IMG/VR virus record: IMGVR_UViG_3300021420_000018
Location: 59,708 to 123,707 of that record
Length of the DNA: 64,000 nt
DNA from: a virus
Direction: 5' to 3' (one strand)
In this document: piece by piece, positions 3,994 through 59,940 of the stretch
How positions within the stretch are numbered: position 1 is the stretch's first letter
Layout: the number at the start of each line of letters is the position of its first letter
Translations under genes and position numbers: made by a program
The notes under the pieces: generated by a model
Seen by the model: the letters and a program-made list of their open reading frames with translations, nothing else
Database searches by the model: none
Told to the model about the DNA's origin: nothing

Positions 3994-4019
3994 TTTTTTG
4001 ATTCTCCCTTTTTGTGAAG

Positions 4020-6895: not shown

Positions 6896-7015
6896 TTTTT
6901 GATTCTCCCTTGTTATTTGAAGCGGGGAGGTCCGTAGAGTCTCCCCGCCCATTGTGGCCGCCACCAACATTTCGACTCTGGGCTCCAAGGGCTATATGGC
7001 GGTCACAAAGATCAA

Positions 7016-9052: not shown

Positions 9053-9248
9053 TAAGTTTCACTTTGATTCTCCCTTTATCGGAAAGTACAGCAACGTCGG
9101 GGTCTTTTGAGCGCGCATCACGGCCGACCCGGAACGGATCCAGCGAAGCGGAGGCGGATTGTGCTCAAACGGCTCGAAGACTACCAGGCTCGTTATGCAC
9201 GCATCGCCTATCCAAAACCGTCGTAGCATTGCTTGTGCAAGTGGGCAG

Positions 9249-11206: not shown

Positions 11207-11465
11207 TGGCGATTGATTCTCCCTTTCTTGAAGTTGAAGTCATACTCCTGTTCAAAATGCTGCTTAGGCTCACCTGGGGATCGCCGAGTGCCCATAACAC
11301 TAGCTTGACGATCGAATCTACACCTACCTTGCGGTAGATATTGGTGCGGTGAGTTTCCACTGTTTTTTCTGAGATATTCAGATGAGCGGCTATCTCTTTG
11401 TTGACCTTGGCCTCACATAACAGCTTGATGATTTCCATTTCGCGGGTACTAAGGTCTAGCGTCAT
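11121..11465 (-). CDS. Solo LuxR-type HTH regulator
   Basis: LSTREMEIIKLL..NKEIAAHLNISEKTVETHRTNIYRK. Confidence 0.85.
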   Translation of the reverse strand: MTLDLSTREMEIIKLLCEAKVNKEIAAHLNISEKTVETHRTNIYRKVGVDSIVKLVLWALGDPQVSLSSILNRSMTSTSRKGESIASEPIQNRISAVSNGEVPPPQLGFVRRLE

Positions 11466-11471
11466 TTTGTA

Positions 11472-11687: not shown

Positions 11688-11691
11688 GGCT

Positions 11692-12789: not shown

Positions 12790-12804
12790 CTTGATTCTCC
12801 CTTT

Positions 12805-13886: not shown

Positions 13887-13903
13887 TTTTTGATTCTCCC
13901 TTT

Positions 13904-17648: not shown

Positions 17649-17672
17649 TTCGATTCTCCCTTTTATTATTTT

Positions 17673-17700: not shown

Positions 17701-17732
17701 CACCTGGACAGTGGGTTCCAGACCTGATGTGG

Positions 17733-18089
17733 TTATGGATTAAGTCTGCGATACTCCGTGTTCAACTTGTCGAAAAGCTGCCGAAGTTCAAATGGGATAC
17801 GAGCGACTCCCGGACTGATGGTGCCATTGATGATCTCCTTGCGAAAGACCAGCTCGAACTGCTCTGCTACCTTCGCCAAGAGATCGACTTTGTGAATGTC
17901 CAAACACATTTCGGCCGGAGGATAATACTCGACTTGGTTCCGCATTCCGTAAAGCAAACCGCCCTCTTCAGACTGCCGGCGACACAGAGGATCGTAATGC
18001 GCCCGCGCCGCTTCGAAAAGGGCGTCTACTTCTTCCGCGTCGAACTCAACCCTGGCCTCCGGCAGGTAGATCAGCTTTTGCAGCTTCAT
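17733..18089 (-). CDS. Hypothetical protein
   Basis: Extended RBS motif directly before ATG 18089. Confidence 0.75.
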   Translation of the reverse strand: MKLQKLIYLPEARVEFDAEEVDALFEAARAHYDPLCRRQSEEGGLLYGMRNQVEYYPPAEMCLDIHKVDLLAKVAEQFELVFRKEIINGTISPGVARIPFELRQLFDKLNTEYRRLNP

Positions 18090-18258
18090 GATTCTCCCTT
18101 TCTTGCTTCTGCTTAACCTTAACCGCATGCTTGCTGGCTTTGCGTTTCCACTTCTCCTCTCTAGAGATCGCCTCAGCGCTTATGTGCGAGCCAGCATCTA
18201 GTTCTTCTTTCGGAACCACGCGCCAACGGCGTTGCTGATTAGGCGGTACTCTTTTCAT
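18046..18258 (-). CDS. Small basic hypothetical protein
   Basis: First ORF after the consensus promoter. Confidence 0.45.
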   Translation of the reverse strand: MKRVPPNQQRRWRVVPKEELDAGSHISAEAISREEKWKRKASKHAVKVKQKQERENHEAAKADLPAGGQG

Positions 18259-18274
18259 GGTTGCACTCTCTCTT

Positions 18275-18303
18275 ATTATAGGTTAGCTACTACGTTATGT
18301 CAA
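18275..18303 (-). promoter_or_regulatory. Consensus sigma70 promoter
   Basis: TTGACA-TAACGTAGTAGCTAACC(17)-TATAAT. Confidence 0.85.
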
Positions 18304-19367: not shown

Positions 19368-19382
19368 TGTGATTCTCCCTTT

Positions 19383-19407
19383 GCCGGATTGTCGGCTCCG
19401 GCTGCCG
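19383..19407 (-). promoter_or_regulatory. Leader pseudoknot copy 4
   Basis: CGGC-A-GCCGGA-GCCG-ACAA-TCCGGC, then AAAGGGAGAATC. Confidence 0.65.
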
Positions 19408-19413
19408 ATGTTG

Positions 19414-19791
19414 TTACCGGCCCTGTCCGCGCAGAATAGCGGCATCGAGCCTGGGTATGAGCGAATCGATCTCCTGCTTCGCTCGCATTGCATCGTTGGC
19501 TACAGGGACTCCGTAATCGCCATCTTTGACATCCACATAGCCTTCGATCAGTTCGTTGATTCTCTCCATCGCCTCAGACGCCTGAATCATGGCTGTGAGC
19601 ATGATCTGGTGAGTCTCAGCATCTGAGCCAAGGGAAAGGCTGAGGACCAATCGCAAAGCATCCTCGAATCGCTTCGATGGCTCACCAAGAATGACAAACT
19701 CTTGAGGAGCCAAGTTGTAGCGATCAAGAAACGCGCGAATGATTCGTCGCGCTTCCGTTCGCTGTCCTGCCAGTTCTGTTAGATCGATCAT
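19414..19791 (-). CDS. Hypothetical protein
   Basis: ATGA overlap with upstream gene. Confidence 0.65.
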   Translation of the reverse strand: MIDLTELAGQRTEARRIIRAFLDRYNLAPQEFVILGEPSKRFEDALRLVLSLSLGSDAETHQIMLTAMIQASEAMERINELIEGYVDVKDGDYGVPVANDAMRAKQEIDSLIPRLDAAILRGQGR

Positions 19792-20069
19792 GCGAACAGC
19801 CTCTTTTCGAGCCACTCGTGTTCGGCTTTGAGCGCTGCGGCTCTGGTTGTGAACGGGCCCAGGATGGGGTTATCGACGTCCAGGTTGAACTGCTTGATCG
19901 CCGGCGACATGTCTGCTATCCAGCGGCCGGATGGCGTTGGCTCAACCAAGCTAGCTCTGGTGATCTCCATCGACGCGTCCGGGAATACGTCCCATAGCGC
20001 GTCGTCGTAGATCGCCAGGATCGTGCCGTTAGGCGCGACTCTTAACTTGAACGTGCTCTGGCTTTTCAT
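19788..20069 (-). CDS. Small hypothetical protein
   Basis: ITRASLVEP..GRW.ADM...GPF.TR..AL.AE..WL. Confidence 0.7.
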   Translation of the reverse strand: MKSQSTFKLRVAPNGTILAIYDDALWDVFPDASMEITRASLVEPTPSGRWIADMSPAIKQFNLDVDNPILGPFTTRAAALKAEHEWLEKRLFA

Positions 20070-20220
20070 ACATCTCCGACGTTTCAACATCGCTCACCTT
20101 CTTCCCGAGTCCTTCTTCGAACTCGCGAGTTAGTTCTTTGCACGACCGGCCCTTCACGCCCTTCACGGTAACTTTGGCGTTGCCGTCAGGCGCGATGCGG
20201 ATGATCACCGTCTCTTCCAT
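20029..20220 (-). CDS. DUF2997 family protein
   Basis: IRIAPDG...VTVKGVKGRSC..LT..FEE.LG.....TSEMY. Confidence 0.85.
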   Translation of the reverse strand: MEETVIIRIAPDGNAKVTVKGVKGRSCKELTREFEEGLGKKVSDVETSEMYEKPEHVQVKSRA

Positions 20221-20221
20221 G

Positions 20222-20635
20222 TCAATCCTCCTCAAGATTGATCTTGCGTTTTGGATTCAACTCCAGCGTCGGTACTTCCTGATCCTCGCGGATGCGTTGC
20301 AGTTCCGCTTGTTGTCTGAGCCCTTTTCTGATGCGATCCACTTCCGCTGCCGTGGCAGGACGTAGACGTTCGGCGGCTTGATAGAACTCAAACACAGCCC
20401 ATACGTGGTCGCACCACAGGTTCGACGATATGGACTGCATTCCATTGATCTGGCCATTCGGACAATCGCACCCCCAGCGGTCGTCCGGGCTTAAGGTGAC
20501 GGTCCACCAACAGCTACTGTTGGCGAAGGCTTTCCATTTACGTTGGCCGAACTCGTTGACGTAGACAGGTGGGTAGAAACGACCGTCAACGGTACGTGCC
20601 GCGACAAACTCAACTCGCGTGATTGTGTATTGCAA
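20222..20635 (-). CDS. SWIM Zn-finger protein
   Basis: WGCDCP...WCDH; ends NPKRKINLEED. Confidence 0.7.
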   Translation of the reverse strand: MQYTITRVEFVAARTVDGRFYPPVYVNEFGQRKWKAFANSSCWWTVTLSPDDRWGCDCPNGQINGMQSISSNLWCDHVWAVFEFYQAAERLRPATAAEVDRIRKGLRQQAELQRIREDQEVPTLELNPKRKINLEED

Positions 20636-20653
20636 CTTTTGTTGCCTCGCAAC

Positions 20654-21061
20654 TTAAGTCGTGCGGGGACGAGTCGCAGTGACCGTGACGTAGCCCTGCT
20701 CGTCGGTTGTCGTCTTAACCTTGAAGCCTTTCTTCTTCCACTGCCTCTTGGTGTATTCGGTGGTGTAGGCTTGCTTCAGTCTCATCGCATCCTGCCCAAC
20801 GAAGTCTTGAAGACCGTAGCCTCGATTGTAAAAATCAGTCTCCAGGCGGAAGCGGCCCGGGCGACCGGTTTCAGAGACGCCGATTTCCATCGCTTGACTG
20901 TTGTTAGGGACGCGAATCGCGTGCTGGCAGCGGCCGTTCTGTCCGGCGAACTGCCTGAACGTTTTCTGGCCCTTGATGTACTCCAATCCAAGGCTCTTTG
21001 CCGCTTCTTCAAGAGCGCCAAGATCGGTGACTTCAAGTTCTATCTGACTGGTGTGGCTCAT
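20654..21061 (-). CDS. DUF1257 (Ycf35-like) family protein
   Basis: MSHTSQIELEVTD..AL..A...LG; EIGV; D.Y; LKQAY. Confidence 0.85.
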   Translation of the reverse strand: MSHTSQIELEVTDLGALEEAAKSLGLEYIKGQKTFRQFAGQNGRCQHAIRVPNNSQAMEIGVSETGRPGRFRLETDFYNRGYGLQDFVGQDAMRLKQAYTTEYTKRQWKKKGFKVKTTTDEQGYVTVTATRPRTT

Positions 21062-21071
21062 CTGTTGCCTC

Positions 21072-21440
21072 CTATTCGAGTGTGATTTTTCTTTTTGGCC
21101 TAAGAACTATTTCCGGTTCCTGCGGCTTCCTGCTTTCGGCACGATGATTAACTTCCTTTATGAGCTGCGCCTTTTTCCCTTCTCCTTGTCTGTGAAAGAT
21201 GAACGCTTGAGCAATGTGTTCGCATGGTGGCGGAACCCATGCAGGCGTCCCTAGCGCGTCTCGTGATGCCGGCGTCCAGGAAGTCTCTTGGCAACTCCCT
21301 GTGCCGCGTGCACCACAATCACACTGCCAAGTCTTGTCCGGGTTGATGCGGGCGATGGCTGGTTCGACATCGCCCCCACTGATTCTGCTGACAGCAAACT
21401 CTACGGTGCCGTCAGGATGTCGCCATACTCGTAGGATCAT
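21072..21440 (-). CDS. SWIM Zn-finger protein
   Basis: WQCDCG...PCEHI; ends RPKRKITLE. Confidence 0.7.
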   Translation of the reverse strand: MILRVWRHPDGTVEFAVSRISGGDVEPAIARINPDKTWQCDCGARGTGSCQETSWTPASRDALGTPAWVPPPCEHIAQAFIFHRQGEGKKAQLIKEVNHRAESRKPQEPEIVLRPKRKITLE

Positions 21441-21443
21441 CGT

Positions 21444-21782
21444 TCAATCCAGGTGGATGAGACGCCGCGTTTGGAGAACGAAGTACGGCTGTGGTGGCGG
21501 CGCGACTGCCGGTGCTCCAGGCCGCCGCCGCGTGGCTGATTGGAATGCGTGCTCTTGTGATGGAGTCGTGCGGGTTTTGTCCACAGGCTCCATCAGCTTA
21601 ACCTGCTCGATGTGCCAACAATCGGCACGCGGCCGCTGTTTGTTGAAGATCCAGCCGCCACAGCTGCATCCCCAGGTGCCGTCTACTTTCATGGCGACGA
21701 CGCGTTTTTTGTCAGGCTCGCTCCGGCTTTCGACTTCCCACCGCGCGATCCACACACCGTTTGCTTCGAGTTTGTTGGGCAT
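21444..21782 (-). CDS. SWIM Zn-finger protein
   Basis: WGCSCGGW...DCWHI; ends QTRRLIHLD. Confidence 0.75.
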   Translation of the reverse strand: MPNKLEANGVWIARWEVESRSEPDKKRVVAMKVDGTWGCSCGGWIFNKQRPRADCWHIEQVKLMEPVDKTRTTPSQEHAFQSATRRRPGAPAVAPPPQPYFVLQTRRLIHLD

Positions 21783-21784
21783 GT

Positions 21785-23371
21785 TCAGTTCACCTGGCCT
21801 TTCGGCGTGCTTCCGCCGCTGCCAGAGGGATCGATCTTGCGACGTCCCTTCACGGCAGCGACCACGCCGACGATCTCGACTTGCGGTTCAGGCTCGAGCC
21901 CTTCCGGCACGTGGTACAGGCCGGAGTAGCTCGCCGAAATGAACTTCTGATCGGCTTGACGGCGCAGATCATCCAGCTTGTCGCGGGAAGAAATGGACAC
22001 CGGCACAATGTACTTCGCCGCTTCCTCGATCGAAGTGCTCAGCACATGCGCGTTGTAACAGCAGTTGCGGATTTCGGCAGGCGTCCAGCCCGTATCGTCA
22101 GGGCGCTTGCCTTTCACATTCCACTTCGCTTCGTACAAGTTCCAGGCCGCTTCCTTCTCAGGCTTGGTCGGCAGATCGAAGAAGAAGGTGCCCGAGCGGA
22201 ACCGGCGCCGCATCTCCGGAGGCAGGCTGTCGAAACGATTGCACGTCGCGATGTAGTAGACCTGGCCCTGGCTGACGGCATGCACCACCTTGAGCGCGGT
22301 GCGGATGTTCTCGCCGGACTGCCCCACAAGCGAGCCCTTCATCCCGGCGAGATCGAAGAAGATCAGCGGCACTTGCCATTCGTTGGCAATCGCTTTCGCA
22401 AGCAGCGTCTTGCCAGAGCCGGCAACGCCCAGGAACGCGCTGCCTTCGGCTTCGGTCTCTTCCATGTCGGTCAGGAGTGCGCCAATCATTTCGGTTGTCG
22501 TGTCTCCTGTGCCTACGGCGCCGAAGTTGGCCATGTGCTTGTCGATCTCATCGATGAATACGACGGCACGGCGTCTGAGAGGACCCTGTCCGCGGCGCAG
22601 ATGGAATCCCTTGCAGTTTCCAAGGCCGATCACGCTGCTGAACGAATCCTTTCCGCGCCAGATGCTCAGGCCTGGCGTCTGTTCGATCTGTTGTCGTTTG
22701 CGTTCCCACAACGCTTCGATATCGAGACCAGCTTTGGTGATGCTCATCGCGCAGACTTGCTCTGCCGGAAACGCAGCGAGGCCGGAAAGCGCTTCGACCG
22801 CACGCTCCACGACTTCGGCCTTTGGCTTCTCTTCGGCTTTGATCAGATTCGCCGCAAGATAGGTTTCGCCCACTATGCCTGCCAGTTGCGCAGCATCGGG
22901 AAGCGGCTCGTCCAGCACCAAAACATCTTGCGCGAGTTCTGGCGGCAGAGTAATCGCTGGACCCACCATGACCAGCGTGCGGGTATCCTCTTTGAACTTG
23001 TCGCGCAAGTTCCAGACAGCTTGGACCACTCGGCTGTCGTGGAAATAGCGATTCAGGTTGGCCATGAAGACGACCGTGCCGGCTGGAATGGCGTTCTTCG
23101 GCGCGATCTTCTTGAGCATGTCGAGAGGATCTTCCAGACGGTTGGCATCTTCGCCGGATCCAGTGATGAGTGACTTCGCGACATTGCGGCCCCGCGGATC
23201 GTTGCAGCCAACAACGCCGTTGACGATATCCCACAGGATCATCGGCGACTCGCCATGCGTCCGGTCGTTCACGATGTTGGCGATGGTCGCTGCATAATCG
23301 GCGGTCCGTACAAAAATGAGCGGAGTCGAAACCTTGCGTGCTGCTTTGAATGTTTCAAGGAAAGTTGGCAT
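21785..23371 (-). CDS. Ycf46-like AAA ATPase
   Basis: Degenerate N-terminal AAA domain; GVAGSGKTLLAKA; SLVGQS; ATCN..SLPPE.RRRF..FFFDLP; WT.AEI. Confidence 0.85.
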   Translation of the reverse strand: MPTFLETFKAARKVSTPLIFVRTADYAATIANIVNDRTHGESPMILWDIVNGVVGCNDPRGRNVAKSLITGSGEDANRLEDPLDMLKKIAPKNAIPAGTVVFMANLNRYFHDSRVVQAVWNLRDKFKEDTRTLVMVGPAITLPPELAQDVLVLDEPLPDAAQLAGIVGETYLAANLIKAEEKPKAEVVERAVEALSGLAAFPAEQVCAMSITKAGLDIEALWERKRQQIEQTPGLSIWRGKDSFSSVIGLGNCKGFHLRRGQGPLRRRAVVFIDEIDKHMANFGAVGTGDTTTEMIGALLTDMEETEAEGSAFLGVAGSGKTLLAKAIANEWQVPLIFFDLAGMKGSLVGQSGENIRTALKVVHAVSQGQVYYIATCNRFDSLPPEMRRRFRSGTFFFDLPTKPEKEAAWNLYEAKWNVKGKRPDDTGWTPAEIRNCCYNAHVLSTSIEEAAKYIVPVSISSRDKLDDLRRQADQKFISASYSGLYHVPEGLEPEPQVEIVGVVAAVKGRRKIDPSGSGGSTPKGQVN

Positions 23372-23392
23372 CTTGATTCTCCCTTTCGTTTT

Positions 23393-23420
23393 GCGATTTC
23401 TTTGCGGCGAATCGCTGCCG
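23393..23420 (-). promoter_or_regulatory. Leader pseudoknot copy 5 (AAA ATPase)
   Basis: CGGC-A-GCGATTC-GCCG-CAAA-GAAATCGC, short linker, then extended RBS. Confidence 0.6.
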
Positions 23421-23762
23421 TTATTTGGCCCTCTTATCCTGTAGCATAAAGCGCCGCATGTGAGCGTACATCCAGCGCCCGCCCGGGGTAAGGTCGCGGC
23501 GTAGCTTCTTGAGCTGTCTGACCAAGAGTGCCCGTCGAATCATGATGTAGATTTCCATCGGTGGAGTGATGATCGCGAACGGAGCACAAATCATCATTCC
23601 CGTTGCGTACAGTATGATCCGGATTTGTTTCAGGCTGAACAGACTCGGCATGTTGCCGTAAGGGATTTGCTTCCGCATCTCTTTCCGGTCTTGGCTCCAT
23701 ACCCACAGCAACCCGAGGAGCATCCACGCCAGAGTCATGATCGCGCCAGGATTCACATTCAT
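23421..23762 (-). CDS. Membrane protein
   Basis: Two hydrophobic segments; extended RBS at 23767-23777. Confidence 0.7.
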   Translation of the reverse strand: MNVNPGAIMTLAWMLLGLLWVWSQDRKEMRKQIPYGNMPSLFSLKQIRIILYATGMMICAPFAIITPPMEIYIMIRRALLVRQLKKLRRDLTPGGRWMYAHMRRFMLQDKRAK

Positions 23763-23777
23763 GGTCGATTCTCCCTT

Positions 23778-23803
23778 GCGCCGTTCGCGGTCGGCAGCTA
23801 CCG
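23778..23803 (-). promoter_or_regulatory. Leader pseudoknot copy 6
   Basis: CGGT-A-GCTGCCG-ACCG-CGAA-CGGCGC, then AAGGGAGAATC. Confidence 0.6.
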
Positions 23804-49010: not shown

Positions 49011-51316
49011 AGGCTCGGCAGCTCCCCGCGGCGGATGCCCATCCGCACGGCCCTAATGATGTCGTCATGGGATAGATTATTGTTGCGTGCGTTGATATTC
49101 ACGCCGATGTTCTGGCGCTTCGACGAAGTGTTGGTAACACCACCGCCAGCAATAATGCGCTGGAGTCCGGTTGAAAGTGATTCAGGCAGAACCATTTCTT
49201 TCGCGTGTGCGAAGATGGCCATGTTTTCGGGAACGAGCGCGCCGCGCTGGGCCTGCCCCACAGCTTCCGTCTCAGCGAAAGCGGCGCCAGCGATGCCAGG
49301 AGCCGCCGATATGTTTAGAGGGAATGGCAACGCCGTCATGACAGAGGCGAAAGCGCCAGCCGCTGCGAGACCGGCATCCATCTGAATCAGGGCCTCATCA
49401 GTCGTGAGCTTTATGGCCGCCTTGGTTGCCCCACCGCTTACCAGCGTAGCGATGCTTTTGGCCAGTGAACTTTTCTCCAACAAATCCACGATGATGAAAT
49501 GCTCGGCCCATTTCAGGCCCATCTGCAAGATATCGTTGGCAACCGATGCCAGAATGGTGTTGCCCATTTTTATGAATATGGTGCTGACTTTCGTGGTGCT
49601 GGTGATCAGCTCGTTCGCGACCCGGGCGAAAGCCTGGTTGATTCCGGTGAACGCTTTGGTCCAAAACTCTTCCACCTTCAGCGCTGCCTGCTGTTGGCTT
49701 AGTGCGATCTGATTGTCGATGGACTTGATCTTGTTGGCGCTATCCTGTACGGCCTTAACTTCCTCGTTCAAGAATGCTTGGTATTTGGCGCGTGTCTCTG
49801 GCGTCGCGCCGGCCAAAAACGCAGTCTCGCCTGCACTTCCGGATGCCGCGCCAGTCAAAAGATTCCTTTGTTTTTCCAGGCCTTCGATGATGATGCGCAG
49901 CTTGTCATCTTCCAGCTTCTTGAGACCCTCCAGTTCCTGGATGTCGAGGGCCTGATTGATATTCAGTCTCGCGAGCCCTGTGACATGTGCGATGTCGAGT
50001 TTTACTGCTGCGATAGCTTTGGTCGACGCCAGCGTTTTTTCCTCTTCGGCAATCGAAGCCAGAGCCATTTCCTCATTTGTTTTCCTTGTCTCCTCGGCCG
50101 CCTTGAGTTGAGCTTCAGACCCGGCTATGAAACGTTTGGTGCTTTCAGCGTCCTGTTCTTCTTTGCTCCTTGTTGCGAACTCGTCTTCAAGCTTAATCGC
50201 GGCTTCGATTCCATCGGCCACCGTACGCCAATACTTGGTTGCTGCTTTATCTTGCTCCAGGAACAGGTCTACGGCTTGCCTCGCGCGCTTTTCTCTTTCT
50301 TTCTCAGCGTCAGCCACACCGGTGGCCACGTCCTTCGGAATATCCACTAACTGTATTTCCTGTATTTTTTTGGCCGTTTCATCAATGGCCTTTTGGGCTT
50401 CGGACATTTTCGCCGTGAGTTCGTCCCATGCCTTACTGCCGGCGCGAACACCGCCAACATGCTGGTCCATCGCCACACCGAGGCGTTCATGCGTTTCAGG
50501 ATCGAAAATCTCGATGTCCTTGCTCATTCCGTCACGCTGCGTTTGAAGATCGCGCAAAGTAACCGTTTGCTCCTGGAGCAACTTGGCGTAGTCCTTGGCT
50601 GCGGCTATTTCATCCTTGACGGCAACGGTGCTCTTCTCCGATCCTGTGAGACCTATCTGATTCAGGTTGCGCTGCTCGATTCCAAGCTTGGTGATCCAGA
50701 CCAGTTGTTCTTGGTTGGCTTTCACCGAATCCTCGTAGGCCTTTTGAGCTGCTTTATCCCAGCCTTCGAATGCGTCAACGGCGTCTCCTATTTTGGAGAT
50801 CATGTCGACGAGGAGTTCGATGAAGCCGACTACCAGAAATGCAGGGAAAAGATCGTTAATAATTGGAATCAATCCAGACATTCGGGACGCGAGGCGAGCG
50901 AAAGCATATTCCATGCCGCCGACGCTGTCGGTTGCGGCTCCCAAGATCTCTCGTGCTTTCGCGCCAGCAATCGCAGTCTGTTCGAATCCTACGCCGGCAC
51001 CTACTGCGGCCTTGGCTACCCGTTCCAGTTGAGGAGCGGCAACGCCGGCAGCTGAGCCAACGGCAGCAACGGCTGTCGCAGCTTCTTTACTGCTGTAACC
51101 GAGCGCTTCAAGAGAAGCGGCCGCGGCGGTGGCGCTGCTGCCCTGCTCCAAATAGCGTGCTGCCGTAGCCTGCGATGCGTCGCCAGCAACCCTGGCCGCC
51201 TCGCCAACTTCCTTGAACTTCGTGGCAAGAATACTTACAGCTTCTGAGGCTGATTTGGCGCCGGCTGTGATTGGTCCAACGTCAAACTCTGTCGCGATCT
51301 TCAGTGTGTCTGCCAT
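49007..51316 (-). CDS. Tape measure protein
   Basis: Ala-rich coiled coil, 769 aa; C-terminal G.LVP.....H..EMVLP; follows the chaperones. Confidence 0.85.
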   Translation of the reverse strand: MADTLKIATEFDVGPITAGAKSASEAVSILATKFKEVGEAARVAGDASQATAARYLEQGSSATAAAASLEALGYSSKEAATAVAAVGSAAGVAAPQLERVAKAAVGAGVGFEQTAIAGAKAREILGAATDSVGGMEYAFARLASRMSGLIPIINDLFPAFLVVGFIELLVDMISKIGDAVDAFEGWDKAAQKAYEDSVKANQEQLVWITKLGIEQRNLNQIGLTGSEKSTVAVKDEIAAAKDYAKLLQEQTVTLRDLQTQRDGMSKDIEIFDPETHERLGVAMDQHVGGVRAGSKAWDELTAKMSEAQKAIDETAKKIQEIQLVDIPKDVATGVADAEKEREKRARQAVDLFLEQDKAATKYWRTVADGIEAAIKLEDEFATRSKEEQDAESTKRFIAGSEAQLKAAEETRKTNEEMALASIAEEEKTLASTKAIAAVKLDIAHVTGLARLNINQALDIQELEGLKKLEDDKLRIIIEGLEKQRNLLTGAASGSAGETAFLAGATPETRAKYQAFLNEEVKAVQDSANKIKSIDNQIALSQQQAALKVEEFWTKAFTGINQAFARVANELITSTTKVSTIFIKMGNTILASVANDILQMGLKWAEHFIIVDLLEKSSLAKSIATLVSGGATKAAIKLTTDEALIQMDAGLAAAGAFASVMTALPFPLNISAAPGIAGAAFAETEAVGQAQRGALVPENMAIFAHAKEMVLPESLSTGLQRIIAGGGVTNTSSKRQNIGVNINARNNNLSHDDIIRAVRMGIRRGELPSL

Positions 51317-51324
51317 GCGGTCCT

Positions 51325-51753
51325 TTATTGTGGCGGAGGAATGTTCATGTGCTCGCCGCGCTTAGAGCGCGCCACGGCTTCTTGAATATGGCCTGGCGCA
51401 CAATCCAAGTGCCGTGCGCCAGTGACGGACTGCAGCGCCATGCGAACATCTTCAGCGGATGGTGATGGACGCGCTGGGCGCGCTGAGCTGCCAGTTCCTT
51501 GCAACTGATAAACAAATGTTTCATCGCCCATTTCTTTCGCTCGCTGTTCCCGCCACGGCTGTTTTTTAGACTCGAATCCGACGAAAGCTCGCACGAGTTC
51601 GTGCACGGGCGGATACTCGTTCCAATACTCCACCAAGTTTCCCACAAACATAAAATCCATCGCGCCCACATCTTCTGGCGATAGCCCTAGCGCGGTAGCA
51701 ATGCGGTTGCGGCATCGAATCAGGGCTACGTCGATGTCGCCAACGCTTCCCCC
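51325..51753 (-). CDS. Tail assembly chaperone, -1 frameshift extension (gpT-like)
   Basis: The -1 frame is open from slippery G-GGG-GAA (51753-51747) to the stop at 51325. Confidence 0.75.
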   Translation of the reverse strand, partial: GGSVGDIDVALIRCRNRIATALGLSPEDVGAMDFMFVGNLVEYWNEYPPVHELVRAFVGFESKKQPWREQRAKEMGDETFVYQLQGTGSSARPARPSPSAEDVRMALQSVTGARHLDCAPGHIQEAVARSKRGEHMNIPPPQ

Positions 51754-52058
51754 GGTTGGGCAAGTTTAATGCCGCTCATTCTGAGGATCTCATCGTGCAA
51801 GTAGAAAACGAAAACCATGTCGAGTTCGGCACGCACCCGCTTAACGTCCCACGGAGCATTGCCGTTGGTATTTCCGGCCGCCTTGTTCAAGGAAGCGCAG
51901 ACCGTTTGGAGCACTCGCTCGGTCCAGTCTGCTTCGGTTGGGGGCGGATTTTTCGCTTTCAACTCGCGGTTGGTTTTCAGGTATTCCTCGGCGGCGTCAA
52001 AACTGAACGGGGCTATTTTTACTGTGAATCCGTCCATCGTGATATCACGGATACGCAT
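51726..52058 (-). CDS. Tail assembly chaperone (gpG-like)
   Basis: Between tail tube and tape measure; ends ...QPGEALATST. Confidence 0.8.
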   Translation of the reverse strand: MRIRDITMDGFTVKIAPFSFDAAEEYLKTNRELKAKNPPPTEADWTERVLQTVCASLNKAAGNTNGNAPWDVKRVRAELDMVFVFYLHDEILRMSGIKLAQPGEALATST

Positions 52059-52182
52059 GCTCACCTTCAACTTGTGTTTTGGATTTTTGTGGCTGCGAGC
52101 ATTCCCGCGGGGAGGCCACGGTACTTCTGAACTTCTCTGGCGGATCTCGGGAGCCGCTCAATCTTCCTGCGAGGGCGTCTCC

Positions 52183-52287
52183 GGATTAAAGTGGGTGCCG
52201 AGGAATCAGCTCGGCACCCTAAAGGGAGAATCAAACTTGAGCATTGCACTCAAGATGTCTTGAAGTGACAACACAGAAGAATGATCC
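52183..52287 (-). ncRNA. Candidate trans-acting antisense sRNA against the shared early RBS
   Basis: Own promoter; hairpins at 52236-52254 and 52193-52219 flank single-stranded UUUGAUUCUCCCUUUA (52235-52220); ends approximate. Confidence 0.7.
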
Positions 52288-52294
52288 AGACGCG

Positions 52295-52323
52295 ATGATA
52301 GGGAAATCGATTACCTTTGTCAA
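52295..52323 (-). promoter_or_regulatory. Sigma70 promoter for the candidate sRNA
   Basis: TTGACA-AAGGTAATCGATTTCCC(17)-TATCAT. Confidence 0.75.
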
Positions 52324-52398
52324 CGAAGAGACTTAAAATATAAAGGGCCTGCGCCTAGAACGCAGACCCGAAGAGCACCGCACCTAATAGGAGGCGCG

Positions 52399-52890
52399 AT
52401 GGCCTGTCCTACCGATAATACTCTCCAAGAACGATTCTGGAAGCATGTTAATAAAAACGGACCAATCCCGGTGTCATGCCCGGAGTTGGGGCCGTGCTGG
52501 ATTTGGACCGGCTCGGCGAATCAATCCGGGTACGGGCAGATTGGCACGTCCAAAGGTTTGCAAGTAGTCCATCGGCTGCATTGGACGTGGCGACACGGCG
52601 AGATTCCACCAGGAAAAGAAGTGATGCACCGCTGCGATACCACGCGCTGCGTTCGGCTCGGGCATCTATTTCTTGGCACTCACACCGACAACATGCACGA
52701 CATGATGACGAAAGGACGAAACAACCAACCCTCTGGAGATGCACACTATCAGCGGAAGCTGACAAGGGATGATGTGGAAACGATAAGAACCTTGTGGTCG
52801 CAAGGCGTGCCGCAAACGGAACTAGCCAAACGCTACAGCAGGAAGACCAACACCATTTCTAAGATAGTTAACAGAAAGCGCTGGTTATAA
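52399..52890 (+). CDS. HNH homing endonuclease (only plus-strand gene)
   Basis: AGGAGG RBS; RFWKHV..GPCWIWTG..GYG..HR..VMHRCD..CV...HLFLGT..DN..DM..KGR; C-terminal HTH. Confidence 0.92.
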   Translation: MACPTDNTLQERFWKHVNKNGPIPVSCPELGPCWIWTGSANQSGYGQIGTSKGLQVVHRLHWTWRHGEIPPGKEVMHRCDTTRCVRLGHLFLGTHTDNMHDMMTKGRNNQPSGDAHYQRKLTRDDVETIRTLWSQGVPQTELAKRYSRKTNTISKIVNRKRWL

Positions 52891-52898
52891 AGTAGGTA

Positions 52899-53669
52899 CT
52901 AGTCCTCGTAAAATTCTCCGACGTAACCGGCCGCATTTGCGAACGCTTGGCCTTCGATATCGGAGATGGTGTAATCGGCGCGCTTGAGAGGAGCAGTGAG
53001 TTTGCCAGCCTTGCAGGCGTAAAGATCCAAATAGTTCGGGATGCCGGCAGTCAGTTCCTGATACGGCTGCGACAGAAGCATTTCAAACTGCGGGCCCCAA
53101 CCTTGAATGTGATTCTGAACGACGAGCACGCGGCCGGTCCCTAGTTGATAGCGGTAGCTGACGAGGATGGCCTTGTTGTTGTCGGACACATTGAACGTGT
53201 ACAAACCGGCGCTGACGTTGTACTGGCCAACAGCGGGGGCTCCAGTGACTTTCTGGAAAAGCTGGAAGTTGGACGCGTAGAGGACGCCCATGTCCTGCGT
53301 GAACACAGCAGAGTGGCTAACCGTGTACGTAGTGCTAACGAGCGTGGTTGCTTCTTGCACCTGCGGCACGCCGCCGCCAGGCCCCGTTCCGGAAGCGTTC
53401 GAGCCGGCCGAGATATTGTCACCAAAATACAGGTTGTTCCACGTGTCGATCGAGAACCGGCCGAAGCCTGCCTTCCACGTGATTTTCTTATCGGAGATCG
53501 CAGTGTCGTCGGGAAACTGGAACTGGCCGCGGAGTTCTTTGATGGTGGCGTCGATGGTGATATCGACGTCCTGCAGGGTAGCGAACCAAATCGGGGATGC
53601 GTTGAAAACGCCGCCGAAGAACGGCCCTGGCAATGCGAAAAGTTGTCCCGCGCCGAAAGCTATTCTCGT
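52899..53669 (-). CDS. Major tail tube protein (probable ACG start at 53669)
   Basis: F.TLQDV.I.ID.TIKEL.GQ.QFP; position between terminator-like gene and chaperones; frame open to TAA/RBS AAGAGGG. Confidence 0.8.
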   Translation of the reverse strand, partial: TRIAFGAGQLFALPGPFFGGVFNASPIWFATLQDVDITIDATIKELRGQFQFPDDTAISDKKITWKAGFGRFSIDTWNNLYFGDNISAGSNASGTGPGGGVPQVQEATTLVSTTYTVSHSAVFTQDMGVLYASNFQLFQKVTGAPAVGQYNVSAGLYTFNVSDNNKAILVSYRYQLGTGRVLVVQNHIQGWGPQFEMLLSQPYQELTAGIPNYLDLYACKAGKLTAPLKRADYTISDIEGQAFANAAGYVGEFYED

Positions 53670-53734
53670 ATGGCTACCCTCTTAAACTACGGCGCAAGGC
53701 TAGCCCAAAAAACGTGCAGGAGCAACAACCAAAA

Positions 53735-54211
53735 CTATATTCCCAACTCTACGGCGATACGCCAAAAAACCGCGATGTTGTTATCTTCGAACTCACGGCC
53801 CCATTCCGAGCCGCCGTCGATCCAGGCATTGTTGACCAGGCCGCCTAATGTCTGGCGCTCCCCGAAGGATGATGGCGTCGAACCGAGCTGCATGGCGGCA
53901 TCGATTTGGTCGGCGATATTGTTGATCGTGGTTTCGCCGTTGATTTGTGCCGTCGGATCGGACGTTACGTAAAGCCAAAGGTTGTAGTGGATCCTGTACT
54001 TGGTGAGGCCGATGTGCGCCTGTTGCCCCTGGATGTACTCTTCTGTGGCCGGACCGCCCTTGAAGAGCGTGAGAAAGGGTTTCTCGGATTCATTCACCGA
54101 CGTCCAAATCCGCGGCACGCGCGTAATGTTGGAACAGAGGGCAGCAAGTGGCGCATAGCCGCTGAGCAGATTGAAGAGTGCAACGGAAATGTCTTCACGG
54201 GCACTTTTCAT
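53735..54211 (-). CDS. Tail terminator-like protein
   Basis: RE.I..ALF.LL; QTLGGLV..WI.G; precedes the tail tube. Confidence 0.7.
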   Translation of the reverse strand: MKSAREDISVALFNLLSGYAPLAALCSNITRVPRIWTSVNESEKPFLTLFKGGPATEEYIQGQQAHIGLTKYRIHYNLWLYVTSDPTAQINGETTINNIADQIDAAMQLGSTPSSFGERQTLGGLVNNAWIDGGSEWGREFEDNNIAVFWRIAVELGI

Positions 54212-54531
54212 TGAGTGCGGAACCGCACTGCTGCGTCAAATGTCCAGACAGCCTGCTCGAGGCCTTGAAGCGCGGTGATTTTGAGCTGATACCGGCTGCC
54301 AACGGTGGCATTAAACGTGTTCGGAACGATGCCCTGGTAATTGCCGTTCGATGCCGGAATGTAGGTCAAAGGCAGGCTGTTAATCACGGGATCTGCATTG
54401 CCTTTTTCATCCATCAGAGTCGCTGCCACTGTCGCTGCGTCCAAATAAGCACCGCTCAAGAAATCCTGCAAACCAGTGACAGAAATAACCGTTGAGTTCA
54501 GCGGATAGAAAATCTGTGGATTGACGGTCAT
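54208..54531 (-). CDS. Small Ig-like virion-region protein
   Basis: Beta-rich; ATV.ATL.D..G; G.YQG. Confidence 0.6.
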   Translation of the reverse strand: MTVNPQIFYPLNSTVISVTGLQDFLSGAYLDAATVAATLMDEKGNADPVINSLPLTYIPASNGNYQGIVPNTFNATVGSRYQLKITALQGLEQAVWTFDAAVRFRTQ

Positions 54532-54535
54532 TTTT

Positions 54536-55252
54536 TTAGAAGGTGATCACGCCGCCATCGCTATCGCCGCCTGTTTCTTGAAATGCCACAGCGTAGGCAC
54601 CATTGAGACCTGCGGATGCAATCCACGTCGTAGGAGCTGTGAGTGATCCCACAGTCATGCTGTGTCCAAATCCATCTCCGAAAGACGTTGTGCCGTCGTA
54701 AGTAAACCCCGCGCCTGTTAAGCCGCTCACGGCACCAGCCCCTCCTGACATCACGACGATGAAATCACTATTCCCCGAGAGTGTCAGCGGCACTCCTGAA
54801 CACGAAGTGCATGAAGCGTTTGCAACCTTGTTTCCTGGGTTCGCCCCTGAATCTAATGCAAAACGCGGAAGCGTCGATATGGCTTCCCACACGATCACAT
54901 CGGCGGTTCCGGTGAAAGTAGTAACCGGCTGACTGAAGGACGTGATGCCGCTGTTGGATTGCAAGCAATAATAAATATCGTTCAGGTCTCCCGCTGGCGC
55001 ATATGCCGCCGGAGCATTGGGAGCATGCACCCAGGGAAGGGCGCAGGCGCCCGAAGGTGGTGCGCCCATCACATCGGTAAAAGCATTATCTTCGAATCCA
55101 ACCACAAGAAGATGGTTTGCTCCGGTCGCTGAAAGAGAAACTACACAAGGGCTAACCGTGCAACCGGCTGCAATGTGTTGCACCTGGGTTTGCGTCCAAG
55201 CGCGAGCTTCCGGAATGAAGGCTAAGAACAACAATGCTGTCAATATTCTCAC
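54536..55252 (-). CDS. Signal-peptide-bearing beta-rich protein ending DGGVITF
   Basis: MRILTALLFLAFIPEARA; Cys pairs. Confidence 0.7.
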   Translation of the reverse strand: MRILTALLFLAFIPEARAWTQTQVQHIAAGCTVSPCVVSLSATGANHLLVVGFEDNAFTDVMGAPPSGACALPWVHAPNAPAAYAPAGDLNDIYYCLQSNSGITSFSQPVTTFTGTADVIVWEAISTLPRFALDSGANPGNKVANASCTSCSGVPLTLSGNSDFIVVMSGGAGAVSGLTGAGFTYDGTTSFGDGFGHSMTVGSLTAPTTWIASAGLNGAYAVAFQETGGDSDGGVITF

Positions 55253-59260: not shown

Positions 59261-59940
59261 TAACCTACGATTTCAGGCTTCCAGTGACCAAACGGAATCG
59301 GTGGAGACTCTCGGCCAGGAACTTGGCTATCAATCACATCTACTGCCAAACCGGTTCCAGGCGTGATGATCTCCGCTGCCGATGCCGTTACGCTTTCATC
59401 TACCAGATTAGAAAACGTGCCCGTGCCGGTTGTCGTGCATTCCCAAAAGACTTGGATGTAAAGGTATTGGTTCGCTGCTAGCGTGGTGGAAGAGCCAGAA
59501 AAGGTCGCCGCAAAACGGGTTGCCGTAGTGGTCAACGTAATCAGCCCTGAATCCGCGGTGCCGATCAGCGAGACTTTTGTCACGGTCGTTGTCGTAGCCG
59601 TGACGACATAGATTTCGCAGATCGCATGGCCTGTGTGTGCACCACCTGACGCCCGGAGCAGTTCGAAATTTACCGTCCACGTGCCAGCCAGAAACGTTAC
59701 GAGCGGTTGGGTATCGTAGAACCATCCCTTGCCAGTGCCAGTGATCGTGCCGCCAGGCGTGCCGGTTACGTTCGCTCCCGGGCCCACATTGTAGTTTGTT
59801 GAAGCGACGGGAACGAACGCAGTGCCGTCCGCTGTGCCGCCAGAGGTCGCACCTTCGGTCAGGCTGAGCTGATTTACGCTAGCATTGCTGCTGACTACGC
59901 CTGAGGCGGTAGAGCGTAGGAATAGTGTGAGGGCTGCCAT
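59257..59940 (-). CDS. Thr/Gly-rich beta-sandwich virion-region protein
   Basis: 227 aa; AGTWT; coupled ORF. Confidence 0.7.
   Translation of the reverse strand: MAALTLFLRSTASGVVSSNASVNQLSLTEGATSGGTADGTAFVPVASTNYNVGPGANVTGTPGGTITGTGKGWFYDTQPLVTFLAGTWTVNFELLRASGGAHTGHAICEIYVVTATTTTVTKVSLIGTADSGLITLTTTATRFAATFSGSSTTLAANQYLYIQVFWECTTTGTGTFSNLVDESVTASAAEIITPGTGLAVDVIDSQVPGRESPPIPFGHWKPEIVGY

What the first reader, a model, noticed from the sequence alone, without database searches (positions are those of the whole stretch)
52183..52323. Phage sRNA whose exposed seed is the exact antisense of 11 early ribosome-binding sites
Seen: a non-coding gap inside the tail operon holds a minus-strand near-consensus promoter (TTGACA-17-TATCAT). 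The ~105-nt predicted RNA has a 6-bp hairpin (52254-52236), then unpaired UUUGAUUCUCCCUUUA (52235-52220), then a perfect 10-bp hairpin (52219-52193) followed by ACUUUAA; its ends GGAU/AUCC can also pair. The 16-nt linker is complementary over 11-16 nt to the (A)AAGGGAGAAUC(AAA) RBS at 11 sites 28-48 kb away, including those of parB, the clamp-loader-like ATPase, ligase, Ku, DUF3150-like and AAA genes. It is the only opposite-orientation copy I found. A given 15-mer is expected roughly 1e-4 times in 64 kb by simple arithmetic. The loop of the 10-bp hairpin repeats part of the seed (UGAUUC). Established: phage antisense RNAs such as P1 C4 and P4 CI act on one or a few loci. Inference: one trans RNA silences a whole regulon through a standardised RBS, serving as an early-to-late switch, a carrier-state or immunity repressor, or a weapon against related phages.
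Basis: partly seen in the sequence, partly recalled or inferred. Interest (0 to 1): 0.95.

Follow-up and report, generated by a model that had tools for sequence, protein, structure and literature searches.

The report
Phage leader RNA mirroring its ribosome sites
A large soil phage puts the same extended ribosome-binding tag on about thirteen replication and repair genes and keeps one mirror-image copy of that tag in a conserved, folded RNA leader in front of a tail-gene operon, so one RNA probably controls the whole gene set by pairing, though no transcript has been seen.

Summary
AAGGGAGAATC sits at 11 minus-strand ribosome-binding sites in the window (13 on the 123.7-kb phage contig, 3 in the other 6.7 Mb). 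The only opposite-orientation copy on the contig is at 52222-52232, behind a TTGACA-17-TATCAT promoter.

New here: the element is conserved. Nine distinct relatives keep promoter, 5' stem, seed and GC-rich hairpin upstream of the same 109-aa gene, with or without the neighbouring HNH gene. The seed is the only invariant block. It follows each phage's own RBS consensus: ...GAAUC in two genomes, ...GAAAC in two. A fifth genome fits less well. G.U pairs put the fold on the sense strand.

Corrections:
- Half of the "exposed" seed pairs with the RNA's 5' end, leaving 5-8 nt free in 8 of 9 elements.
- No credible terminator follows, so this is a leader of the downstream operon, not a shown ~105-nt sRNA.
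- Nothing supports an early-to-late timing.
- No RNA data exist.

Best reading (about 0.5): a trans-acting anti-RBS leader RNA. Closest published parallel: the start-associated sequences of Cluster K mycobacteriophages, whose function and single reversed copy remain unexplained. This scan has noted similar anti-leader RNAs before in at least ten other phage genomes.

The parts
52295..52323 (-). sigma70-type promoter TTGACA-17-TATCAT; predicted start at about 52286-52288
   Evidence: A TTGACA/TTGACG -35 box, a 16-17 nt spacer and a TAnnnT -10 box are kept in all 9 distinct relatives; L001 has TTGACG, the rest TTGACA.
52228..52287 (-). 5' stem-loop domain. The RNA's first bases GGAUCA (52287-52282) pair with UGAUUC (52233-52228), the 5' half of the seed.
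   Evidence: z = -7.1 for the 107-nt RNA. The same 5'-end-to-seed pairing, with different 5' arms, occurs in 8 of 9 relatives.
52220..52235 (-). seed UUUGAUUCUCCCUUUA, complement of the standard RBS; predicted free part UCCCUUUA at 52227-52220
   Evidence: T.G.TTCTCC.TT are the only invariant columns of the 9-sequence alignment.
52193..52219 (-). hairpin 2: 10-bp GC-rich stem with 7-nt loop CUGAUUC
   Evidence: A 10-12 bp stem is present in all 9 elements with different sequences that stay paired.
52056..52192 (-). rest of the leader: ACUUUAAUCC tail, a further hairpin, an AAAAAUCCAAAAC tract and the RBS of the 109-aa gene
   Evidence: An AAAAUCC-like tract follows the hairpins in relatives.
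51726..52055 (-). 109-aa gene that the leader precedes (ATG at 52055); no family match. It is followed by a 114-aa and a 769-aa gene.
   Evidence: homologues lie downstream of the element in relatives.
52335..52369 (-). terminator-like hairpin plus T-run just upstream of the promoter; it came in with the HNH cassette
   Evidence: Present in the window and L001, absent where the HNH is absent.
52399..52890 (+). HNH homing endonuclease with HTH, the only plus-strand gene nearby; an insertion, not part of the element
   Evidence: Present at this site in the window, L001 and L011 (broken there); absent in L002-L005 and L007, which keep the RNA element.
23767..23777 (-). target RBS, 113-aa protein
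23375..23385 (-). target RBS, 528-aa AAA ATPase
19371..19381 (-). target RBS, 355-aa protein (no Pfam hit)
18090..18100 (-). target RBS, 118-aa protein
17652..17662 (-). target RBS, Ku
13892..13902 (-). target RBS, 162-aa protein
12793..12803 (-). target RBS, ATP-dependent DNA ligase
11215..11225 (-). target RBS, clamp-loader-like AAA ATPase (GTG start 10 nt downstream)
9066..9076 (-). motif copy before an 11-codon mini-ORF that overlaps a TTGACA-17-TAACAT promoter
6901..6911 (-). target RBS, 36-aa hydrophobic peptide
4000..4010 (-). target RBS, ParB-like protein

Best explanation
The stretch is the 5' part of a leader RNA. It is transcribed on the minus strand from a host-type (sigma70) promoter at the head of the operon that begins with the 109-aa gene.

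The RNA starts with a stem-loop whose 3' arm, together with the following 5-8 free bases (UCCCUU...), is the exact complement of the phage's private, extended ribosome-binding tag AAAGGGAGAAUCAAA. A strong GC hairpin follows.

Thirteen non-structural genes on the contig carry that tag, among them ParB, Ku, ligase and two AAA ATPases. The most likely mechanism is pairing in trans. The free CCCUU contacts the GGGAG of a tagged mRNA, and pairing then spreads into the G.U-weakened 5' stem to give an 11-15 bp duplex over the Shine-Dalgarno region. That duplex outcompetes the roughly 7-bp contact with 16S rRNA, blocks ribosome loading and may expose the mRNA to cleavage. Output of the tagged gene set is thereby tied to activity of this promoter.

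Shown: the sequences, their conservation, the tracking of seed and tag, and the strand of the fold.
Inferred: that the RNA is made, that it pairs, that it represses, and whether it acts as a full-length leader or as a processed fragment.
For: (1) Specificity. The motif is the most frequent 11-mer of the contig (13 copies), and its only antisense-oriented copy on the contig is this one. The 13 sites are the 13 best duplex partners on the sense strand.

(2) Conservation. Nine distinct elements (window, L001, L002, L003, L004, L005, L007, L011, L047) lie upstream of the same gene in phages whose 109-aa proteins are only 44-50% identical. All have a sense-strand TTGAC(A/G)-16/17-TAnnnT promoter and a hairpin starting at the predicted start site. 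The element persists where the HNH gene is absent.

(3) Sequence constraint on the seed only. The invariant columns of the alignment are T.G.TTCTCC.TT. Hairpin 2 and the 5' arm change sequence but stay paired.

(4) Tracking.
- RBS consensus cAAAGGGAGAATCAA (C17) and AAAAGGGAGAATCAAAA (G001), against leader complements TAAAGGGAGAATCAAAC and CCAAGGGAGAATCAAAT.
- RBS consensus AAGGGAGAAACA (G002) and AAAAGGGAGAAACAAAA (G004), against leader complement CGAAGGGAGAAACAATG.
- Sites with at least 11 contiguous complementary bases: 8-14 with a seed of the same clade, 0-2 with the other clade's seed.

(5) Asymmetry. The seed arm stays a perfect complement of the tag. The 5' arm differs from the tag by transitions that give G.U pairs (AGAGAUGAUG, GGAAAUAGUG, AGAAUCAGA, GGAUCA).

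(6) Strand. The sense fold is more stable than the antisense fold in 8 of 9 elements and holds 3-6 G.U pairs.

(7) The 16S 3' end in 4 genomes of the same genus or order is GGAUCACCUCCUUUCU. It can pair with AAGGGAG but not with the conserved AAUC/AAAC extension.

(8) The seed pairs poorly with the downstream gene's own start region: -3.3 to -10.3 kcal/mol, and paired to it in the full-leader fold in 2 of 9.
Against: - No RNA evidence of any kind.
- In the predicted folds the 5' half of the seed is sequestered in 8 of 9 elements, leaving only 5-8 free bases.
- No terminator follows, so a discrete sRNA is not supported.
- The leader's promoter and several promoters in the target region are of the same sigma70 type, so no temporal logic is visible.
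- The tracking is in effect one substitution between two clades.
- In G003 the seed does not follow the consensus just after GGGAGAA (G against C). It has only 3 partners of 11 nt or more and none of 12.
- A distant phage, G023, has its own standard RBS (GGAGACGAC, 12 copies) and no antisense copy. RBS standardisation therefore does not need such an RNA.
- On the opposite strand a start codon follows the motif at RBS-like spacing in 8 of 9 elements.
- The tag resembles the T4 RegB strong-site consensus GGAGRAYARAA (passages of PMC3014915). A protein could therefore be what reads it.
Confidence: 0.5

Rival explanations
1. Same pairing, opposite direction. The abundant tagged mRNAs act on the leader. 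By pairing with the seed they open the 5' stem and so change the stability, read-through or translation of the downstream tail-gene operon. Late expression would then depend on accumulation of the tagged messages.
For: The seed lies in the leader of a protein-coding operon, not in a stand-alone gene, and no terminator follows. Half of the seed is part of a 5'-terminal stem of the kind that usually protects an mRNA end, so pairing would remodel the leader.
Against: A sensor would need only a few partners. It does not explain why 13 separate RBSs each keep an 11-15 nt match. No alternative leader fold linking the seed to the downstream start region is predicted: paired in 2 of 9.
Confidence: 0.15
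2. A purely local leader structure, acting as a 5' stabiliser or a transcription anti-termination element. Its complementarity to the RBS tag would be a relic of its origin as an inverted copy of an early intergenic module, kept only because it forms the stem.
For: Two stem-loops directly after a strong promoter at the head of a long operon resemble stabiliser or put-like leaders (recalled knowledge). The opposite strand of the element looks like an early module: a hairpin, 1-3 nt, then the tag. Most of the seed is paired within the RNA.
Against: If only pairing mattered, both arms should drift. Instead the seed arm stays an exact complement of the current RBS consensus in four genomes while the 5' arm drifts through G.U pairs. 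The free CCCUU stretch is invariant although unpaired. The seed follows the T/A difference between clades.
Confidence: 0.15
3. The functional copy is on the plus strand. It would be a genuine tag-type RBS with a start codon, serving a tiny ORF or an antisense transcript, or a DNA site read in either orientation by a protein.
For: A start codon follows the motif on the opposite strand in 8 of 9 elements (TTG in the window, ATG in 7), at 3-8 nt. G002 has two further opposite-strand tag copies that are RBSs of real reverse genes. In three elements a reverse-strand HNH gene lies beyond it. A sense-strand tag copy also precedes an 11-codon mini-ORF at window 9062.
Against: The ORFs are 8-72 codons with unrelated peptides, and L001 has none. 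No plus-strand promoter was found in 50000-55000. The element persists without the HNH gene, and the HNH has its own RBS 160 nt further on. The fold's G.U pairs become A.C mismatches on that strand, and the antisense fold is weaker in 8 of 9. The conserved promoter faces the other way.
Confidence: 0.08
4. Chance occurrence of the reverse complement of a frequent motif.
For: None beyond the short length (11 nt) of the core.
Against: Across five genomes the core 9-mer has only 7 antisense-oriented copies in all. Five of them fall at this same spot upstream of the same gene, with conserved architecture.
Confidence: 0.01

Closest known systems
[quoted passage not shown] 2011, PMC3203893; passages read)
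   Same: An asymmetric tag of about 13 bp containing the Shine-Dalgarno core, 3-7 bp before start codons. Its conserved flanks cannot pair with 16S rRNA. It is confined to non-structural genes and often preceded by inverted repeats. [quoted passage not shown] The authors left open whether an RNA or a protein reads it. A 2025 survey of 188 genomes still calls the function unverified and does not mention antisense or small RNA (PMC12699233, passages read).
   Different: The tag sequence differs (GGGATAGGAGCCC), as do the host phylum and phage size. No one has tied the reversed copy to an RNA. Here the reversed copy sits in a conserved promoter-driven leader and tracks the tag across relatives. 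In phage Anaya I found the reversed copy in the 10-nt apical loop of a sense-strand hairpin in the gp96-gp97 gap, a different display from the linker used here.
c4 antisense RNA of phages P1 and P7 (as described in review PMC12197685, passages read; processing from the operon leader is recalled)
   Same: [quoted passage not shown]
   Different: c4 acts on its own operon (ant) and pairs through loop sequences. This element would act on 13 dispersed genes through a linker and stem arm. It has no Rfam match at all: the one sub-threshold hit in 51000-53500 is elsewhere.
T4 RegB endoribonuclease and RegA repressor (review PMC3014915, passages read)
   Same: Selective shut-off of many early messages through a shared, unusually long RBS-embedded motif. 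The RegB strong-site consensus GGAGRAYARAA matches GGAGAAUCAAA at 10 of 11 positions.
   Different: The T4 readers are proteins. No RegB or RegA family match was found in this assembly (the control genomes were silent too, so this is weak). A protein reader does not explain a conserved complementary copy.
C-rich (UCCC-motif) multi-target sRNAs of Gram-positive bacteria such as RsaE/RoxS and RNAIII (recalled, not checked here)
   Same: A free UCCC-type stretch pairs with the G-rich Shine-Dalgarno region of several mRNAs.
   Different: Those are stand-alone cellular sRNAs with short, imperfect matches to ordinary RBSs. Here the match is 11-15 nt to a private tag.

Membership tests
Stand-alone trans-acting sRNA gene (promoter to intrinsic terminator) | own promoter | tested here: met
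   TTGACA-17-TATCAT, 11 of 12; conserved in 9 of 9 elements
Stand-alone trans-acting sRNA gene (promoter to intrinsic terminator) | GC hairpin followed by a U-run that ends the transcript | tested here: not met
   The tail is ACUUUAAUCC, and hairpin 2 is not among the terminator-like sites listed. Relatives have A-rich tails such as AUAAAAUCC and CAAAAUCC.
c4 antisense RNA (Rfam C4 family) | match to the family's covariance model | tested here: not met
   cmscan of 51000-53500 against Rfam 15 at E up to 1: no hit on the element
c4 antisense RNA (Rfam C4 family) | cut out of the operon leader by RNase P and acting on the RBS of a downstream gene of the same operon | not testable with these tools
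   Processing cannot be seen in sequence. Pairing with the downstream gene's own RBS is weak.
SAS-type start-associated tag system (Cluster K mycobacteriophages) | asymmetric tag containing the SD core a few nt before start codons, with conserved flanks not explained by 16S pairing | tested here: met
   16S tail
SAS-type start-associated tag system (Cluster K mycobacteriophages) | restricted to the non-structural part of the genome | tested here: met
   All 11 window copies lie at 4000-23777, none in 24-64 kb except the reversed one.
SAS-type start-associated tag system (Cluster K mycobacteriophages) | single copy in the opposite orientation, not at a gene start | tested here: met
   (sole reversed copy in C17, G001, G003, G004)
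SAS-type start-associated tag system (Cluster K mycobacteriophages) | the tag sequence GGGATAGGAGCCC and relatedness to Cluster K phages | tested here: not met
   The tag here is AAAGGGAGAAUCAAA. No phage record matched the region by blastn. This is an analogue, not a member.
RegB-type nuclease target set | RBS motif fitting GGAGRAYARAA | tested here: inconclusive
   10 of 11 positions for the AUC clade, 9 of 11 for the AAC clade, by eye against the consensus quoted in PMC3014915
RegB-type nuclease target set | a RegB homologue encoded by the phage | tested here: inconclusive
   No PF10715 match in the assembly, but the control genomes did not ring either.

The most novel reading that the evidence does not exclude
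Many tailed phages may mark a set of non-structural genes with a private, extended ribosome-binding tag and govern the whole set with one complementary RNA, built here into the leader of a late (tail) operon. If so, this would explain the start-associated sequences of Cluster K mycobacteriophages, open since 2011, and their single reversed copy. It would define a widespread, undescribed class of viral one-to-many regulatory RNAs in which tag and anti-tag co-evolve.
Probability: 0.35. Interest if true: 0.85.

Novelty: new variant of a known kind. Interest (0 to 1): 0.65.

Why it matters
Antisense control of a ribosome-binding site is textbook, but known phage cases act on one or a few loci. Here a single RNA element matches the standardised start sites of about thirteen dispersed genes and follows them across related phages.

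This gives a concrete, testable reader for start-associated tags, whose function has stayed unknown in mycobacteriophages since 2011. It also points to the single reversed tag copy as the place to look.

If confirmed, it would add a post-transcriptional layer to phage gene timing. It would also offer a compact orthogonal tag and anti-tag pair for synthetic control of gene sets.

Tried and rejected
- Rfam scan of 51000-53500: nothing on the element.
- blastn of 51300-53700 against GenBank phages: no match.
- Genome-contig scan with the 244-aa neighbour: no relative.
- Sequencing runs: no RNA holder listed, only 2 soil-metagenome DNA holders.
- Second-site (kissing-loop) idea: complements of the hairpin-2 loops are not clearly enriched. 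G002 gives 21 hits against 8.2 expected at 9 nt or more, not at RBSs; the other genomes are at expectation. Dropped.
- Cis anti-SD for the 109-aa gene: weak duplexes, and paired in 2 of 9 folds. Kept only as part of a rival.
- MAFFT-based consensus folding of seed plus hairpin 2 mis-registers three sequences and reports broken pairs. I used per-sequence folds aligned from the stem base instead.
- Covariance model R1, built from six AAC-clade elements, recovers those six and the window element only weakly (E = 0.11). It misses G001 and G003 and finds no extra copies or distant members in 775 kb.
- More distant relatives (L008, L009, L054-L059, L064-L066) have other genes after the 244-aa gene and no detectable 109-aa homologue within 3 kb. 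Their leaders could not be examined.
- A profile of the 109-aa protein was too variable to scan with. Single-protein scans gave one known locus and nothing.
Uninformative.
- RegB and RegA family searches of the assembly: no match, controls silent.
- Supplementary files of PMC3203893, which list SAS sites of Adephagia, Angelica and CrimD, were not opened and may bear on the reversed-copy claim.
Full report
WHAT IS THERE

The window is the last 64 kb of a 123.7-kb contig (C17) in a 6.85-Mb assembly. The contig has 54.8% G+C, against about 58-59% for the large contigs. Almost all its genes are on the minus strand. Between a 244-aa gene (53633-52899) and a 109-aa gene (52055-51726), the minus strand reads in this order:
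- the antisense of a plus-strand HNH homing-endonuclease gene (52399-52890);
- a terminator-like hairpin with a T-run (52369-52335);
- the only sigma70-like promoter found in 50000-55000 (TTGACA from 52323, 17 nt, TATCAT to 52295, 11 of 12);
- a structured stretch containing UUUGAUUCUCCCUUUA (52235-52220);
- a perfect 10-bp GC hairpin (52219-52193);
- ACUUUAAUCC, about 125 nt of further leader, and the start of the 109-aa gene.

Yes. AAGGGAGAATC with up to one mismatch occurs 13 times in the window, against 0.8 expected (0 of 100 shuffles reach 13). Eleven are exact minus-strand copies, one is a one-mismatch copy inside a gene, and one is the exact plus-strand copy at 52222-52232.

Every exact minus-strand copy lies 0-10 nt before a start codon. 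The genes include a ParB-like protein, a clamp-loader-like AAA ATPase, an ATP-dependent ligase, Ku and a 528-aa AAA ATPase. One copy precedes only an 11-codon ORF and two precede 36- and 46-aa hydrophobic peptides.

Over the whole assembly the contig has 13 sense copies and this single reversed copy. The remaining 6.7 Mb have three, which is what chance gives. The motif is the most frequent 11-mer of the contig. A duplex-energy scan of the contig's sense strand with the 20-nt seed puts the 13 sites in ranks 1-13 (-20.4 to -24.0 kcal/mol; next -18.9).

In the minimum-energy fold of the predicted RNA (z = -7.1), the first bases GGAUCA pair with UGAUUC of the seed. Only UCCCUUUA is then free between a long 5' stem-loop and hairpin 2.

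Hairpin 2 is not followed by a U-run and is not among the terminator-like sites listed. In relatives the tail is A-rich. The RNA therefore reads as the leader of the 109-aa gene's operon. A ~105-nt free sRNA could arise only by processing, which sequence cannot show.

RELATIVES

The 244-aa neighbour retrieved 13 viral and 34 metagenome loci. Wherever the 109-aa gene follows it, the same element lies in front of that gene. There are nine distinct versions: window, L001, L002, L003, L004, L005, L007, L011 and L047. A tenth, divergent one is L068.

The HNH gene with its upstream hairpin is an insertion. It is present in the window, in L001 and (broken) in L011, and absent in the others, which keep the RNA element. 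The element therefore does not belong to the HNH gene.

All nine keep a sense-strand TTGAC(A/G), a 16-17 nt spacer and a TAnnnT box. In all nine a hairpin begins at the predicted start site, 6-7 nt after the -10 box.

In the nine-sequence alignment the only invariant columns are T.G.TTCTCC.TT, which is the seed. Hairpin 2 is 10-12 bp in all nine, with different sequences that remain paired.

In eight of nine the 5' end of the RNA pairs with the 5' half of the seed. The 5' arms differ (GGAUCA, AGAAUCAGA, AGAGAUGAUG, GGAAAUAGUG, AGAA-CAGUG) and use several G.U pairs, while the seed arm stays constant.

The sense strand folds better than its complement in eight of nine (by 4-13 kcal/mol), with 3-6 G.U pairs. 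L007 is the exception.

DOES THE SEED FOLLOW THE TAG

Four relatives were read in full or in large part (G001 165 kb, G002 179 kb, G003 152 kb, G004 65 kb).
- The tag is the most frequent 11-mer in G001 (AAAGGGAGAAT 10 copies, AAGGGAGAATC 9) and G004 (AAGGGAGAAAC 7), and the second most frequent in G002 (AAGGGAGAAAC 6).
- Consensus around GGGAGAA before start codons: cAAAGGGAGAATCAAaAa (C17, 15 sites), AAAAGGGAGAATCAAAAt (G001, 15), acAAGGGAGAAACAaAAg (G002, 16), AAAAGGGAGAAACAAAAt (G004, 9).
- Complements of the leaders: TAAAGGGAGAATCAAACT, CCAAGGGAGAATCAAATA, CGAAGGGAGAAACAATGA and CGAAGGGAGAAACAATGA.
- Sense-strand sites with at least 11 contiguous complementary bases: 13/13 and 14/11 for the two AUC-type seeds on C17/G001, and 8/10 and 8/10 for the AAC-type seeds on G002/G004. 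Across clades the counts are 0-2.
- The core 9-mer has a single antisense-oriented copy, the leader, in C17, G001, G003 and G004. G002 has two more, which are RBSs of reverse-strand genes.

Limits of this evidence:
- The tracking amounts to one substitution separating two clades.
- G003 has a looser tag and its seed (complement CTAAGGGAGAAGCC) does not follow the base after GGGAGAA. It has 3 partners of 11 nt or more and none of 12.
- In the partial record G005 the seed reads UCUCCUUU, and the two RBSs of this type in the 22.7 kb held read GGAGAA without the third G. This is only a hint.

WHY THE TAG IS NOT JUST A GOOD SHINE-DALGARNO

The 16S 3' end in four genomes of the same genus or order is GGAUCACCUCCUUUCU. 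It can pair with AAGGGAG (7 bp with one wobble) but not with the conserved AAUC/AAAC(AAA) extension.

However, a distant phage (G023, 102 kb, 65% G+C, 39% identity in the AAA protein) has its own standard RBS, GGAGACGAC(GATG), 12 times on the gene strand. It has no antisense copy, and nothing convincing appears at up to 2 mismatches. Standardised RBSs can therefore exist without a mirror RNA. The tag also fits the T4 RegB strong-site consensus GGAGRAYARAA at 10 of 11 positions, although no RegB or RegA family match was found (controls silent).

WEIGHING THE READINGS

Four observations point to an RNA made from the sense strand whose seed arm is selected for complementarity to the tag:
- the sense-strand promoter conserved in nine of nine elements;
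- a hairpin that starts at the predicted transcript start;
- the G.U pairs;
- the asymmetry between a fixed seed arm and a drifting 5' arm.

Pairing with the tagged mRNAs is the simplest reason for that selection. The free CCCUU stretch would serve as a toehold, and the wobble-weakened 5' stem as a gate that a perfect target can displace. I put this at about 0.5.

The same pairing could work the other way, with tagged mRNAs opening the leader and acting on the tail operon (0.15).

A purely local leader structure descended from an inverted early module is possible. It does not explain why only one arm is frozen (0.15).

An opposite-strand RBS cannot be dismissed outright, because a start codon follows the motif on that strand in eight of nine elements. 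Against it: the ORFs are 8-72 codons and unrelated, L001 has none, no plus-strand promoter was found, and the fold is weaker on that strand. I put this at 0.08.

Pairing of the seed with the downstream gene's own start region is weak: -3.3 to -10.3 kcal/mol, and seen in 2 of 9 full-leader folds.

Nothing in the sequence supports a particular biological role. The phage has seven strong sigma70-type promoters on its gene strand, some in the target region, so an early-to-late switch is conjecture.

COMPARISON WITH WHAT IS KNOWN

The closest published parallel is the start-associated sequence system of Cluster K mycobacteriophages. That is a 13-bp asymmetric tag containing the SD core, 3-7 bp before start codons and restricted to non-structural genes. 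Its flanks cannot be explained by 16S pairing, it often has upstream inverted repeats, and K1 phages carry a single copy in the opposite orientation not associated with a gene start. The reader of the tag ("either RNA or protein") was left open (PMC3203893, passages read). A 2025 survey of 188 Cluster K genomes still calls the function unverified and contains no occurrence of 'antisense' or 'small RNA' (PMC12699233, passages read).

In phage Anaya I located the reversed copy (one mismatch) in the gp96-gp97 gap. On the gene strand it falls in the 10-nt apical loop of a long hairpin.

The P1/P7 c4 RNA (review PMC12197685, passages read) shares the principle of an antisense RNA that masks an RBS, but acts on its own operon. 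The element here has no Rfam match. T4 RegB and RegA are protein analogues of regulon-wide control through RBS motifs.

My two literature searches for a phage RNA controlling many of its own RBSs listed no such case (listings and abstracts only).

EARLIER NOTES OF THIS SCAN

Notes on this window describe the tag (e1-6168805) and structured motifs just upstream of six tagged RBSs (e1-6168806). I saw the same recurring CGGY...RCCG-NNAA hairpins in C17, G001, G002 and G004.

By words, the scan holds at least ten follow-up reports of "anti-leader" or anti-RBS RNAs in other uncultured phages. So this kind of thing has been found before on other DNA within this scan. One of those reports gave me the lead to the SAS paper. 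These are unchecked AI notes and are not counted as evidence.

VERDICT

It is a new variant of a known kind (antisense control of translation start sites) and an analogue, not a member, of the SAS system. Interest 0.65.

Noticed in passing
window 12805-23803 (minus strand); also G001, G002, G004 (loci L014-L031, L040-L043): Many tagged RBSs are preceded by a short module: ...CGG(T/C)-A-stem, an 8-nt loop (A/G)CCGNNAA, stem, then 1-4 nt and the tag. The stems differ in sequence but stay paired. The opposite strand of the leader element has the same outline: a hairpin, 1-3 nt, then the tag.
   Followed up: partly
window 52335-52890: The plus-strand HNH-HTH homing endonuclease, with a hairpin before its own RBS, is a cassette inserted between the 244-aa gene's stop and the leader promoter. 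It is present in the window, L001 and L011 (frameshifted there) and absent in six other relatives.
   Followed up: partly
window 9040-9076 (minus strand): One tag copy is followed by GTG and only 11 codons (MKLIDISWPPS). The mini-ORF overlaps a TTGACA-17-TAACAT promoter-like site. This may be a translated leader that couples to a promoter.
   Followed up: no
window 52183-52192 and 52068-52082 (minus strand); same places in L001-L011: An AAAAUCC(AA)-like tract follows both hairpin 2 and the last hairpin before the 109-aa gene's RBS, in most relatives. Its function is unknown; it could be a processing or ribosome stand-by site.
   Followed up: no
G023 (loci L101-L106): A distant 102-kb, 65% G+C phage has its own standardised start tag GGAGACGAC(GATG), with 12 copies, all on the gene strand and all a few nt before start codons. 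No antisense copy was found.
   Followed up: partly
L221 12850-12900 (phage Anaya JF704106, about 59,850-59,900): The single reversed start-associated sequence of this Cluster K1 mycobacteriophage lies in the 385-nt gp96-gp97 gap, after a terminator. On the gene strand it is displayed in the 10-nt apical loop of a long hairpin (161-nt fold, z = -4.0).
   Followed up: partly
window RBS sites (for example 4000-4014): GGAGAAUCAAA fits the T4 RegB/S1 strong cleavage consensus GGAGRAYARAA at 10 of 11 positions. No RegB-family protein was detected in the assembly.
   Followed up: partly
C17 sense-strand positions 37629, 45698, 78351 (window about 26372, 18302; the third lies outside the window): The phage carries several near-perfect or perfect sigma70 promoters (TTGACA-17-TATAAT) on its gene strand, as do G001 and G002. 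Two C17 leaders share a 'cagttagag' stretch.
   Followed up: no
L001 5300-5610: In the closest relative, a small ORF with two CxxC pairs (zinc-ribbon-like) sits between the HNH cassette's hairpin and the leader promoter. It is absent from the window.
   Followed up: no
G000 contig C13 about 122634 (minus strand): One of the three host-contig copies of the 11-mer is followed by CGAATG and so looks like an RBS. Three copies in 6.7 Mb is chance level.
   Followed up: no
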